This document shows, piece by piece, positions 33,863-34,749 of a stretch of 45,722 nt of DNA. The position numbers and the translations under genes were made by a program. Source of the stretch: Ignavibacteria bacterium (GTDB taxonomy: Bacteria > Bacteroidota > Ignavibacteria > UBA10030); the NCBI GenBank assembly GCA_041302875.1, contig JBFYQI010000002.1, forward strand, positions 1 to 45,722. Direction: 5' to 3'. The notes beneath the pieces were generated by a model. It saw nothing but the letters and a program-made list of their open reading frames with translations, searched no databases and had not been told where the DNA came from. Every line of letters starts with the position of its first letter. Within the stretch, counting starts at the first letter, position 1.

Positions 33863-33922
33863 CCGGGACTTAATCCGGGGTTTTATCCGGGGACTTATCC
33901 GGGGTTATATCCGGGACAATCA
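33863..33922 (+). repeat. 12-nt tandem repeat array 1 (5 units, consensus CCGGGGAYTTAT)
   Basis: Units read directly: ccgggacttaat / ccggggttttat / ccggggacttat / ccggggttatat / ccgggacaatca. A degenerate second run with the same 12-nt period follows at 33957-33992: ccggggaaaatc / ccgggcgtctct / ccgggacggatt. Confidence 0.9.
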
Positions 33923-34046
33923 TGCGGAGAATGGGAGCGCAACATGGACAGTTTCTCCGGGGAAAATCCCGGGCGTCTCTCCGGGACGGATTCCGCATCA
34001 GGGCTGGTCATAGAGGAGGTCGCGATTCGAAGACCTTCGATCCGCC

Positions 34047-34577
34047 TCATCTGAAGGACTGGGCGCGGGCACCTGTCTCAAGGTTCGATTCACCCGCGAT
34101 CCGCGCCAACTCACTCGGCTGGACGAATGTCGGGAACGATGTCTCGCGCACCTCGAGGGGAGGCGATTGGGAATCCGCGTATGCTTCGAGGATGATCATC
34201 CGTCGTTCGTTGTCCCATTTCCAAACGACTTGAGCGGTCATTTTCGAGTCGGGCTTTGAATGCGTCATCCCAATACCAGCGGGCCAAACCGGCATGAGCA
34301 GGTGTTGCATCGAGCTCTCCTCTTCAGAGGATAGTTCGCTGCTTCCCTCCATTGGAGCACGTTCTGCCGCGCCCATATCTGAGAAGAGGAAACTCACGTA
34401 CTGTTTCGGTGTCCCCTCCGGGAACACAGCGAAGAACATCGATCGTTCAAGCCAGCCTTCGCTCGTCATCTGCTCGGCAGCCTGCATTGCGCGAGCGAGT
34501 TGAGGAGGGAGAGGGTCTTCTGAGCAGGCCATGAGGAAGGACATGCAGAGTGCGAAGAAAAGCGCGGCGGTCTTCAT
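34047..34577 (-). CDS. hypothetical lipoprotein (176 aa)
   Basis: ATG at 34577 with GAGGGA upstream. Lipobox in MKTAALFFALCMSFLMACSE. I recognise no domain. The gene is bracketed by the two 12-nt repeat arrays. Confidence 0.5.
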   Translation of the reverse strand: MKTAALFFALCMSFLMACSEDPLPPQLARAMQAAEQMTSEGWLERSMFFAVFPEGTPKQYVSFLFSDMGAAERAPMEGSSELSSEEESSMQHLLMPVWPAGIGMTHSKPDSKMTAQVVWKWDNERRMIILEAYADSQSPPLEVRETSFPTFVQPSELARIAGESNLETGARAQSFR

Positions 34578-34641
34578 GAGATCCCTCGCGTTGTGGAAGT
34601 TGATGATGCGTGCAATTGGGTGGCGGCCTTGAGGTTGAGAA

Positions 34642-34749
34642 CCGGGGGTGATTCCGGGGACTTATCCGGGGACTTATCCGGGGTTTTATCCGGGGACTTA
34701 TCCGGGGACTTATCCGGGGCTTTATCCGGGGTTTTATCCGGGAACAATC
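34642..34749 (+). repeat. 12-nt tandem repeat array 2 (9 units, same unit and orientation as array 1)
   Basis: Units: ccgggggtgatt / ccggggacttat x2 / ccggggttttat / ccggggacttat x2 / ccggggctttat / ccggggttttat / ccgggaacaatc. The terminal unit (ccgggaacaatc) resembles the terminal unit of array 1 (ccgggacaatca). Confidence 0.9.

What the first reader, a model, noticed from the sequence alone, without database searches (positions are those of the whole stretch)
33863..34749. Two same-orientation arrays of a 12-nt tandem repeat (CCGGGGAYTTAT) bracketing a single lipoprotein gene
Array 1 has 5 units at 33863-33922, plus a degenerate 3-unit run at 33957-33992. Array 2 has 9 units at 34642-34749. 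The two share unit sequence, orientation and even the terminal unit (ccggga(a)caatc). They flank only the 176-aa lipoprotein gene. Array 2 sits 65-170 nt upstream of that gene's start, directly downstream of the arsM-rSAM-TrxR operon.

The plus strand carries GGGG tracts every 12 nt: 8 in array 2 and 3 in array 1. This gives G-quadruplex potential with 8-nt loops, and a C-rich equivalent on the minus-strand transcripts.

Possible roles are:
- an iteron-like binding array for a regulator
- a slipped-strand or recombination substrate (unit-number variation, or array-to-array recombination deleting the lipoprotein gene)
- a structural insulator or terminator

Nothing else in the window resembles it.
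Basis: seen in the sequence. Interest (0 to 1): 0.65.

Follow-up and report, generated by a model that had tools for sequence, protein, structure and literature searches.

The report
Dispersed 12-base tandem repeat family
The two repeat arrays are real, but they are two ordinary copies of a repeat family scattered through the intergenic DNA of one uncultured Ignavibacteria-like lineage. The arrays gain and lose whole 12-base units between strains and have no special tie to the lipoprotein gene they flank.

Summary
There are 5 units at 33863-33922, a degenerate 3-unit run at 33957-33992, and 9 units at 34642-34749. All have a 12-nt period, the same orientation, and occur nowhere else in the window.

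The "bracketing" of the lipoprotein gene looks coincidental. A metagenome scan found the same architecture at about 24 other distinct loci in contigs of one ~58% GC lineage, next to unrelated genes:
- 2-14 copies of TCCGGGG[TT/AT/AC]TTA;
- a terminal variant unit, TCCGGGATAAAT;
- a loosely conserved C-N9-TTGGGA tail.

The arrays are non-coding. They lie mostly at gene 3' ends, in either orientation relative to transcription.

Contigs with identical flanks carry identical unit counts. Strains 2-8% diverged differ by whole units (5 vs 14, 4 vs 13). Window array 2 has 8 TCCGGG-register units against 3 in two other alleles.

Distant lipoprotein homologues and the nearest Ignavibacteriales relatives have no arrays. 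There is no match in Rfam, plasmids, viral contigs or the searchable literature.

Best reading: a new, lineage-specific interspersed minisatellite or mosaic intergenic element, comparable to BOX, STRR, MIRU or BIME elements, that evolves by slippage or unequal recombination. A role as a protein-binding platform is not excluded. G-quadruplex, terminator and cassette-excision readings are weak. Interest is modest.

The parts
33862..33921 (+). Array 1. Five 12-nt units in the TCCGGG register: a degenerate first unit TCCGGGACTTAA, three internal units, and the terminal variant unit TCCGGGACAATC.
   Evidence: identical in L004, L034, L074 and L075
33922..33956 (+). Conserved long tail/spacer of a subfamily (ATGCGGAGAATGGGAGCGCAACATGGACAGTTTC). 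It contains the family tail motif C/A-N9-ATGGGA.
   Evidence: It aligns with CCGCGGAGAATGGGAGCGCATCATGGAAGATCTC downstream of arrays at other loci: L008 (two loci), L021/L065 and L015.
33957..33992 (+). Degenerate 3-unit run of the second, inverted-type 12-mer (CCSGGG core). Together with array 1 it forms an imperfect long palindrome.
   Evidence: In the + strand RNA fold, array 1 pairs with this run (-71.1 kcal/mol, z = -2.25). The same arrangement, 34-35 nt after the array, occurs in L008, L052 and L021.
34642..34748 (+). Array 2. One degenerate head unit (CCGGGGGTGATT), seven canonical units TCCGGGG[AC/TT/CT]TTA, and the terminal variant unit TCCGGGAACAAT.
   Evidence: Orthologous arrays have 3 units in L034/L074/L075 and 3 in L056.
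34749..34763 (+). Tail of array 2 (CCAGCGATCCTGGTA), a weak match to the family tail C-N9-TTGG(G/C)A. It ends 16 nt before the stop codon of the convergently read thioredoxin-reductase gene.
34047..34577 (-). Context, not part of the element: a 176-aa predicted lipoprotein (signal peptide with LMAC lipobox). The gene is lineage-restricted and mosaic between strains.
   Evidence: 14 homologues at 53-100% identity; no Pfam family; mosaic identity profile
34780..36087 (-). Context: thioredoxin/thioredoxin-reductase fusion gene whose 3' end faces the tail of array 2.
32654..33799 (+). Context: MscS-type mechanosensitive channel gene whose 3' end faces the head of array 1, 62 nt away.

Best explanation
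The two arrays are two independent copies of a lineage-specific, high-copy interspersed non-coding repeat. It is a mosaic intergenic element built around a 12-bp minisatellite.

Each copy has four parts:
- one or more degenerate head units;
- a run of near-identical units, TCCGGGG[TT/AT/AC]TTA;
- a terminal variant unit, TCCGGGATAAAT, which with the preceding unit makes a short palindrome (TTTATCC-G-GGATAAA);
- a loosely conserved tail (C-N9-TTGGGA). In a subfamily this is followed by a ~34-nt spacer and an inverted run of a related 12-mer.

Shown:
- Copies sit in intergenic DNA, mostly against gene 3' ends, in either orientation.
- The run grows and shrinks by whole units between strains.

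Inferred:
- The change in unit number comes from replication slippage or unequal recombination.
- Copies were seeded by dispersal of a short founder. The order "AC unit, TT unit, terminal unit, tail" recurs at the 3' end of most copies.
- The family behaves mainly as a tolerated selfish or neutral element. It accumulates where insertions do least harm. At this locus its effect is to make the two spacers around the lipoprotein gene length-polymorphic and to provide short portable homology.
- That the arrays lie on both sides of one small gene reflects the density of the family (roughly one array per 20-50 kb), not a cassette mechanism.
For: Family and architecture:
- 69 metagenome loci and 1 genome locus hold the pattern. 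About 45 of them (GC 0.55-0.60) carry true arrays of 3-14 units with the same head/units/terminal unit/tail layout.
- 147 of 148 internal units are 12 nt long, and three unit types make up 134 of them.
- TTATCCGGGG occurs 220 times in 405 kb of these loci, and only 3 occurrences are solo.
- A long-tail subfamily is shared by window array 1 and at least 3 other loci.

Context, from my own crude gene calls:
- Of 24 distinct loci, 9 are convergent, 14 co-directional (8 in one orientation, 6 in the other) and 1 divergent.
- Convergent sites make up 9 of 24 against a background of 20% (p = 0.04).
- Heads often start 0-41 nt after a stop codon.

Non-coding: ORFs running through arrays are start-codon artefacts.

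Dynamics:
- Eight locus pairs with ~100% identical flanks have identical counts.
- Pairs with 92-98% identical flanks differ (5/14, 4/13, 6/8, 7/5, 5/4).
- Length differences are +24, -36, +108, +108, -24 and +24 nt.
- L067 has two composite copies in tandem where L035 has one.

No tie to the lipoprotein:
- Homologues at 53-62% identity sit in other contexts without arrays.
- L056 keeps the gene without array 1.

Lineage restriction:
- Relatives with 74-75% identical TrxR (the P0017 homologue is labelled a MAG Ignavibacteriales bacterium; GC 0.49-0.51) have the same operon and no arrays.
- There were 0 hits in viral contigs and plasmids.

Precedent: pneumococcal BOX elements have a variable tandem boxB module and are over-represented between convergent genes. 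That was read as evidence for tolerated parasitic elements (PMC3049150).
Against: - The 10-nt core of the units is almost invariant across all loci and strains, while the tails differ strongly between loci. This hints at sequence-specific constraint, such as a binding protein. The hint is weakened because the search pattern required two perfect cores, so diverged arrays were not sampled.
- A second population of 12-nt periodic CCCGGGGAGAYW-type arrays shares the CCGGGGA core and the period. A purely neutral process does not obviously explain that.
- No terminal inverted repeats, target-site duplications, empty sites or solo founder copies were found. The dispersal mechanism is therefore unknown.
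- All context statistics rest on a home-made gene caller and on small, partly redundant metagenome contigs.
Confidence: 0.6

Rival explanations
1. The arrays are binding platforms for a lineage-specific, sequence-specific DNA-binding protein. The protein would recognise the CCGGGGA / TTATCC core in a 12-bp register, with the terminal palindrome as a dimer or nucleation site. It would polymerise along the array, as ParR does on parC or the omega repressor does on heptad arrays. The arrays would then act genome-wide at gene ends as roadblock terminators, insulators or nucleoid-organising sites.
For: - Core positions 1-7 and 10-12 are nearly invariant in 147 internal units from 35 arrays, while positions 8-9 and the tails vary.
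- The function would be orientation-independent, as the observed distribution requires.
- 19 of 28 loci have at least 6 of 7 matching arm positions in the TTTATCC-G-GGATAAA junction palindrome.
- A second array type shares the CCGGGGA core and the 12-bp period.
- No conserved RNA structure or covariation was found in the tail, which points to a DNA-level feature.
Against: - No candidate protein is known, and none is encoded next to the arrays.
- Unit number is very free (2-14) and differs between close strains.
- The window's own arrays have poor junction palindromes (4-5 of 7).
- Core invariance is inflated by ascertainment, because the pattern search required perfect cores, and by recent expansion.
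- The family is absent from the nearest relatives, so any function is dispensable at genus scale.
Confidence: 0.2
2. The arrays are transcription terminators or attenuators. On the CCGGGG strand, adjacent units form UCCGGG/UCCGGG hairpins followed by GUUUUAU. The array plus an inverted run forms a long hairpin between convergent genes.
For: - The consensus scan finds three terminator-like sites, all inside the arrays on the + strand, against 1.2 expected.
- Array 1 plus its inverted degenerate run folds at z = -2.25.
- Heads often start 0-41 nt after a stop codon, and convergent sites are enriched.
- The last full unit is preferentially the U-rich TTTTA type.
Against: - Among co-directional loci the orientation is 8 to 6, and gene 3' ends face the head (16) and the tail (18) about equally.
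- For array 2 the hairpin/U-run strand is antisense to both neighbours, and its + strand fold is no better than shuffles (z = 0.0).
- The stems are only 6 bp, including two G-U pairs.
- Some loci have a separate canonical hairpin next to the array (L013, L056).
Confidence: 0.1
3. The two arrays are functional boundaries of a lipoprotein gene cassette. They would be recombination sites for excision or exchange, or array 2 would be a phase-variable promoter element that tunes lipoprotein expression through unit number.
For: - Both arrays have the same orientation and share an atypical ACAAT(C) terminal unit.
- The lipoprotein gene is mosaic between strains, and one boundary of the divergent segment coincides with array 2. 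Identity between the window and L034 is 100% up to about 34225, falls to 44-82% from there to the array, and returns to 96% beyond it.
- The unit count of array 2 differs among alleles (8, 3 and 3).
- Unequal recombination between composite repeats is seen elsewhere (L035 vs L067).
Against: - The same arrays occur at about 24 loci with unrelated neighbours.
- No deletion junction was found among the alleles recovered.
- L056 has the gene without array 1.
- Distant homologues of the gene lack arrays.
- Contigs with identical flanks always show identical counts, so there is no sign of high-frequency switching.
- No sigma-70-like promoter lies in or near array 2.
- ACAA-type terminal units also occur at other loci (L050, L056, L063, L067).
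Confidence: 0.05
4. The arrays act through G-quadruplex (+ strand) or i-motif (- strand) formation.
For: GGGG tracts recur every 12 nt, 8 in array 2. With loops allowed up to 12 nt the G4 pattern is matched. The highest 25-nt G4Hunter window in array 2 is 1.28.
Against: - Loops are 8 nt, so no canonical G3+N1-7 motif exists.
- Mean G4Hunter is 0.92 (array 2) and 0.70 (array 1), below the usual 1.2 threshold.
- Many family members have only 3-4 units.
- Orientation relative to transcription is random.
- The conserved part of the unit extends well beyond the G-run (TTATCC).
Confidence: 0.04

Closest known systems
BOX elements of Streptococcus pneumoniae (boxA-(boxB)n-boxC)
   Same: - Interspersed intergenic element of modular build, with an internal module repeated in tandem a variable number of times.
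- Copy number differs between strains.
- Over-represented between convergent genes.
- Causes length polymorphism (PMC3049150; here).
   Different: - The internal unit here is 12 nt, not ~45 nt.
- The flanking modules are short and poorly conserved.
- There is no consistent pairing of head and tail and no terminal inverted repeats.
- There is no sequence relationship, and the phylum differs.
Cyanobacterial STRR (short tandemly repeated repetitive) heptamer arrays
   Same: Very short units amplified head-to-tail in many intergenic places of one lineage, with function unknown (this description is from my own knowledge; the papers found only mention them).
   Different: The unit is 7 nt against 12 nt. 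STRR arrays are not described with a defined terminal variant unit and tail. The lineages are unrelated.
MIRU / bacterial VNTR minisatellites
   Same: Intergenic tandem repeats whose unit number differs between strains by whole units. The unit length is a multiple of three. One ORF through array 2 (34574-34747, -) ends in ATGA, overlapping the lipoprotein start codon.
   Different: MIRU units are 46-100 bp, sit inside operons in the direction of transcription, and carry coupled small ORFs (own knowledge). Here a third of the loci lie between convergent genes and both orientations occur.
REP/BIME and neisserial NIME mosaic elements
   Same: High-copy extragenic elements at gene 3' ends, combined into mosaics with other short repeats. 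Here there are composites with an inverted 12-mer run and with longer tails.
   Different: The unit is not a stem-loop palindrome. Copies are direct, not alternating. No RAYT-type transposase link could be examined.
Iteron or centromere-like direct-repeat arrays (plasmid iterons, parC/ParR, omega-repressor heptads)
   Same: Head-to-tail repeats at about one helical turn, here closed by an inverted unit as in some omega operator arrays (own knowledge).
   Different: These arrays sit at dozens of chromosomal sites with no adjacent rep or par genes, and with free unit number. There is no match in the plasmid collection.

Membership tests
Interspersed VNTR / minisatellite-bearing intergenic repeat (generic class) | Head-to-tail repeats of one short unit | tested here: met
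   TRF gives period 12 with 91% matches. 147 of 148 internal units across the family are 12 nt.
Interspersed VNTR / minisatellite-bearing intergenic repeat (generic class) | Many dispersed copies in one genome or lineage | tested here: met
   About 24 distinct loci were found in metagenome contigs of one GC 0.55-0.60 lineage, plus a MAG. No complete genome was available for a census.
Interspersed VNTR / minisatellite-bearing intergenic repeat (generic class) | Unit number polymorphic between strains, changing by whole units | tested here: met
MITE | Terminal inverted repeats and target-site duplications | tested here: not met
   Heads and tails aligned across loci show no consistent inverted termini or duplicated flanks. 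No empty site was available to define the ends.
REP/BIME | The unit is a 20-40 nt imperfect palindrome forming a stem-loop, and clusters alternate in orientation | tested here: not met
   Units are direct 12-mers. Only the junction with the terminal unit is palindromic (7+1+7), and only in 19 of 28 loci.
REP/BIME | Association with a RAYT (REP-associated tyrosine transposase) | not testable with these tools
   No complete genome of the lineage is at hand.
BOX-like modular element | Conserved 5' and 3' modules that pair with each other around the variable tandem module | tested here: inconclusive
   Array 1 pairs with a downstream inverted run (z = -2.25). Array 2 has no partner (z = 0.0). Tails show no covarying pairs.
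Intrinsic terminator | G+C-rich hairpin followed by a U-run, oriented with the upstream gene | tested here: inconclusive
   The consensus is met on the + strand. The orientation rule fails at about half of the loci, including array 2.
G-quadruplex motif | Four G-runs of at least 3 with loops of 1-7 nt, or G4Hunter of at least 1.2 | tested here: not met
   Loops are 8 nt and there are 0 canonical matches. Mean G4Hunter is 0.70 and 0.92, with a maximum window of 1.28.
Plasmid iterons / partition centromere | Array adjacent to the replication-initiator or partition genes it serves | tested here: not met
   The neighbours are MscS, a lipoprotein and Trx-TrxR, and unrelated genes at other loci. There was no plasmid match.
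Contingency locus (phase-variable simple sequence repeat) | Repeat inside an ORF or in the promoter spacer, with high-frequency length switching within a population | tested here: not met
   The arrays are non-coding and no promoter-like site overlaps them. Contigs with identical flanks from different samples always have identical counts. Read-level data were not available.
Known RNA families (Rfam 15) | Match to a curated covariance model | tested here: not met
   There was no hit at gathering thresholds in the window, nor at E <= 1 in 33750-34850.

The most novel reading that the evidence does not exclude
The 12-bp register and the invariant CCGGGGA/TTATCC core are shared by two array types at many gene ends. 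They could mark a genome-wide system in which a lineage-specific DNA-binding protein coats these arrays, with the terminal palindrome as the nucleation site. The coated arrays would act as orientation-independent transcription roadblocks, insulators or nucleoid anchors. Strain-specific unit number would tune their strength. That would be a chromosomal, dispersed analogue of centromere-like direct-repeat arrays.
Probability: 0.15. Interest if true: 0.6.

Novelty: new member of a known kind. Interest (0 to 1): 0.33.

Why it matters
As it stands, this is a previously undescribed interspersed repeat family in an uncultured Ignavibacteria-like lineage.

Practical uses:
- It explains contig breaks in these metagenome-assembled genomes.
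- It provides ready-made VNTR markers for separating strains in metagenomes.
- It warns against reading local meaning into a pair of arrays that are part of a genome-wide family.

It would matter more if the strict 12-bp register and invariant core turn out to reflect a dedicated binding protein. The family would then be a tractable example of dispersed direct-repeat arrays with a chromosomal function.

Tried and rejected
- **Coding repeat.** Five of the six reading frames through the units are open, and a 57-aa ORF (PDKS/PDKT repeats) ends on the lipoprotein ATG. However, arrays lie between convergent genes. Where an ORF "contained" an array, the real gene starts at a signal peptide downstream.
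- **Known RNA or riboswitch.** Rfam finds nothing. There is no covarying structure in 22 aligned tails.
- **Promoter in the tail.** I compared the tail by eye with sigma-70, sigma-54 and Bacteroidetes -33/-7 motifs and found no consistent spacing. The scan tool found 0 sigma-70-like sites.
- **Phage or plasmid origin.** There were 0 viral-contig matches and no plasmid match.
- **Empty sites, solo founders, terminal inverted repeats and target-site duplications.** None were found. The pattern search could only retrieve array-bearing loci.
- **Hits in Mycobacterium and Pelagibius genomes (L001, L002) and about 25 metagenome loci of other GC content.** These are short, unrelated, mostly coding 2-3-unit repeats.
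- **Literature.** No paper contains the unit as a repeat, and none deals with tandem intergenic repeats in Ignavibacteria.
- **Rho-utilisation or CsrA-sponge readings of the C-rich strand.** I considered these from general knowledge only and did not test them. Arrays of 3-4 units and the random orientation argue against both.
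Full report
**1. Observation**

Reading 33600-35000 shows array 1 as TGT-CCGGGACTTAAT-CCGGGGTTTTAT-CCGGGGACTTAT-CCGGGGTTATAT-CCGGGACAATC. Array 2 has a degenerate CCGGGGGTGATT, then seven CCGGGG[AC/TT/CT]TTAT units, then CCGGGAACAATC.

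Tandem Repeats Finder reports period 12 at 34653-34742 (7.5 copies, 91% matches). It also reports higher-order periods of 24 and 36.

Shuffles give no such runs. CCGGGGAYTTAT with up to 2 mismatches gives 17 hits against 5.6 expected, and every close hit lies in the arrays.

- an MscS-type channel gene (32654-33799, +);
- a 176-aa lipoprotein gene with no Pfam match (34047-34577, -);
- a thioredoxin/thioredoxin-reductase fusion (34780-36087, -), preceded by a radical-SAM gene and a methyltransferase gene.

A second, independent assembly (L004) carries both arrays unchanged.

**2. The arrays belong to a dispersed family**

One scan of 185,579 species genomes found a single true relative. It is a "Bacteroidetes bacterium" MAG with 4+1 units between ruvB and a convergent gene (L003). 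The two other hits are unrelated short repeats.

One metagenome scan with TTATCCGGGGNNTTATCCGGGG returned 69 loci. About 45 of them, all with GC 0.55-0.60, carry arrays of 3-14 units. Most of the rest are unrelated 2-3-unit repeats, often coding; L016/L062 (orthologues of the L013 array with only 2 units) and L050 belong to the family.

The family members share one architecture:
- Degenerate head units, often TCCGGGAWTYYA.
- Internal units that are 12 nt in 147 of 148 cases. Positions 1-7 and 10-12 are nearly invariant. Only three common types occur: TCCGGGG-TT-TTA (48), -AT- (47) and -AC- (39).
- A terminal variant unit, consensus TCCGGGATAAAT. With the preceding unit it forms TTTATCC-G-GGATAAA, with at least 6 of 7 arm positions matching in 19 of 28 loci.
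- A tail with consensus C-N9-TTGG(G/C)A.
- A preferred order of the last units: AC unit, then TT unit, then terminal unit.

The core TTATCCGGGG occurs 220 times in 405 kb of these loci and is solo only 3 times.

A subfamily that includes window array 1 has a longer conserved tail, CCGCGGAGAATGGGAGCGCATCATGGAAGATCTC. It is followed by an inverted run of a related 12-mer, TCTCCCCGGGNN.

Such type-2 arrays (CCCGGGGAGAYW) also occur on their own. Another subfamily has a ~150-nt tail. The elements are therefore mosaics.

**3. Context**

I trained a simple codon-usage gene caller on the long ORFs of these loci. It classifies 24 distinct array loci as:
- 9 between convergent genes;
- 14 between co-directional genes (8 in one orientation of the array, 6 in the other);
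- 1 between divergent genes.

The background for intergenic spacers of at least 40 nt is 20% convergent, 64% co-directional and 16% divergent. The convergent excess has p = 0.04, and the divergent deficit is not significant.

Gene 3' ends face the head 16 times and the tail 18 times. Heads often begin 0-41 nt after a stop codon.

ORFs that seemed to contain arrays are artefacts of upstream start codons. The real genes start at signal peptides downstream.

**4. Dynamics**

Eight pairs of loci with ~100% identical flanks, from different samples or assemblies, have identical unit counts. Pairs with 92-98% identical flanks differ: 5/14, 4/13, 6/8, 7/5 and 5/4. The length differences are multiples of 12.

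For the window locus, array 2 has 8 units in the TCCGGG register. It has 3 in the allele of L034/L074/L075 and 3 in L056.

L067 has two composite copies (array plus long tail) in tandem where L035 has one. This points to duplication or deletion by unequal recombination between composite repeats.

Several contigs end inside arrays (L011, L021, L039, L069). That is expected for an interspersed repeat in short-read assemblies.

**5. Relation to the lipoprotein gene**

The gene has only 14 homologues in 5.8 billion clustered proteins, all about 176 aa and with no Pfam family. Homologues at 53-62% identity lie in other genomes (GC 0.41-0.60), in other contexts, and without arrays.

L056 keeps the gene and array 2. 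It lacks a 1.77-kb stretch holding an amidohydrolase fragment, the MscS gene and array 1. In its place is a 283-nt stretch with a small Cys-rich ORF.

The gene is mosaic:
- The window and L034 are 100% identical from 33780 to about 34225.
- They are 66-82% identical from there to about 34510.
- They are essentially unrelated from there to array 2.
- They are 96% identical again beyond the array.
- In the middle part, L034 is 96-98% identical to L056.

One recombination boundary therefore coincides with array 2. This is compatible with the arrays offering portable homology, but a single case proves nothing. No deletion junction between arrays 1 and 2 was seen.

**6. Lineage**

The closest named relatives of the TrxR fusion (70-75% identity) are MAGs labelled Ignavibacteriales or Ignavibacteria. 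Two contigs carrying 74-75% identical TrxR, one of them from a MAG labelled Ignavibacteriales (GC 0.49-0.51), carry the same radical-SAM/TrxR gene pair (preceded by the methyltransferase gene in the longer contig, L082), followed by a sigma-54 activator gene. They have no lipoprotein gene and no tandem arrays at all. The family is confined to a narrow ~58% GC clade. Viral contigs, plasmids and Rfam hold nothing similar.

**7. Mechanism**

Shown:
- The arrays are non-coding, dispersed and modular.
- They are biased toward gene 3' ends and indifferent in orientation.
- They change by whole units between strains and are stable between samples of one strain.

Inferred:
- A short founder was dispersed, as the conserved 3'-terminal order of units and the tail suggest.
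- Local expansion and contraction then followed, by slippage or unequal exchange. The 24- and 36-nt higher-order periods and the alternating AC/TT units in L044 fit block-wise duplication.
- Old units decay, which would explain the degenerate heads and the type-2 runs.

This is the behaviour described for BOX and similar elements. Their excess between convergent genes was read as tolerance of parasitic insertions (PMC3049150). I therefore commit to a selfish or neutral interspersed minisatellite element, with confidence 0.6.

The main rival is a protein-binding platform (0.2). It is favoured by the invariant core, the junction palindrome, the shared 12-bp register of two array types and the orientation independence. 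It is weakened by ascertainment bias, because the search demanded perfect cores, by the free unit number, and by the family's absence from close relatives.

The terminator reading (0.1) has a consensus match on the + strand and a good hairpin for array 1. It fails the orientation test, and array 2 is antisense to both neighbours.

The G-quadruplex reading (0.04) fails the usual criteria. The cassette or phase-variation reading (0.05) is contradicted by the family-wide distribution and by the stability of counts within strains.

**8. Comparison and novelty**

The nearest known kinds are pneumococcal BOX elements, cyanobacterial STRR arrays, MIRU-type VNTRs and BIME/NIME mosaics. There is no sequence relationship to any of them. 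Several defining features of MITEs, REPs, iterons, G4 motifs and contingency loci were tested and not met (see the membership table).

No paper in the searchable library contains the unit as a repeat, and none describes such repeats in Ignavibacteria. I rate it a new member of a known kind.

Interest is modest at 0.33. It would rise to about 0.6 if a dedicated binding protein or a roadblock function were demonstrated.

Noticed in passing
window 34047-34577 (-), compared with L034 and L056: The lipoprotein gene is a recombination mosaic between strains. The 3' third is identical to L034. The middle is ~75% identical to L034, while L034 is 96-98% identical to L056 there. The 5' end and leader of L034 are unrelated to both. 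Divergence across the 10-kb window/L034 alignment is concentrated in this gene.
   Followed up: partly
window 32283-34051 versus L056 761-1044: One related strain lacks a 1.77-kb stretch holding a truncated amidohydrolase fragment (32281-32640, only profile positions 77-146 of 289), the MscS gene and array 1. In its place is 283 nt with a small Cys-rich (CxxC...CxxC) ORF. This marks a strain-variable islet between the 1640-aa protein gene and the TrxR operon.
   Followed up: partly
window 38287-38316, 40719-40748, 42667-42696: There are three copies of a 30-nt hairpin, ACTCCCGGCTTCTTAAGCTGCCGGGAGTGT (77-97% identical). Two of them form a 59-nt inverted pair. A further copy lies in L034 at 12827-12856. 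This is probably a second small interspersed (REP- or terminator-like) repeat of the lineage.
   Followed up: no
L008, L012, L013, L015, L020, L057, L063, L073 (coordinates): There is a second, more heterogeneous population of 12-nt periodic arrays (CCCGGGGAGAYW / TCTCCCCGGGNN). It shares the CCGGGGA core and the period with the main family. Some sit exactly 34-35 nt after a main-type array in inverted orientation, and others are isolated.
   Followed up: partly
L017/L033/L052, L035, L067 (two copies), L039/L063: Some arrays carry a ~150-nt conserved tail with CCTTCGAC...AAGCTCAGGACGCGTGGGTGAGTGTGCGGGTG...ATCAGTGTCAATCAGTGGTCA. L067 has two such composite units in tandem where L035 has one. 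The motif is not present in the window.
   Followed up: partly
window 34574-34747 (-): A 57-aa ORF runs through array 2 (PDKT/PDKS/PDKA tetrapeptide repeats), and its TGA overlaps the lipoprotein ATG (ATGA). Five of six frames of the unit are open, so this is most likely a by-product of the repeat. A MIRU-like translational-coupling role was not formally excluded.
   Followed up: partly
L011 (2505-2564 of 2569), L021 (12-95), L039 (2773-2805, contig end), L069 (18-53): Several metagenome contigs begin or end inside an array, so this repeat family breaks short-read assemblies of the lineage.
   Followed up: no
window 34047-34577 (-): By my own crude codon-usage log-odds score, the lipoprotein gene scores far lower per residue (12.7 for 176 aa) than its neighbours (81-370). 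This is consistent with a fast-evolving or recently acquired gene.
   Followed up: no
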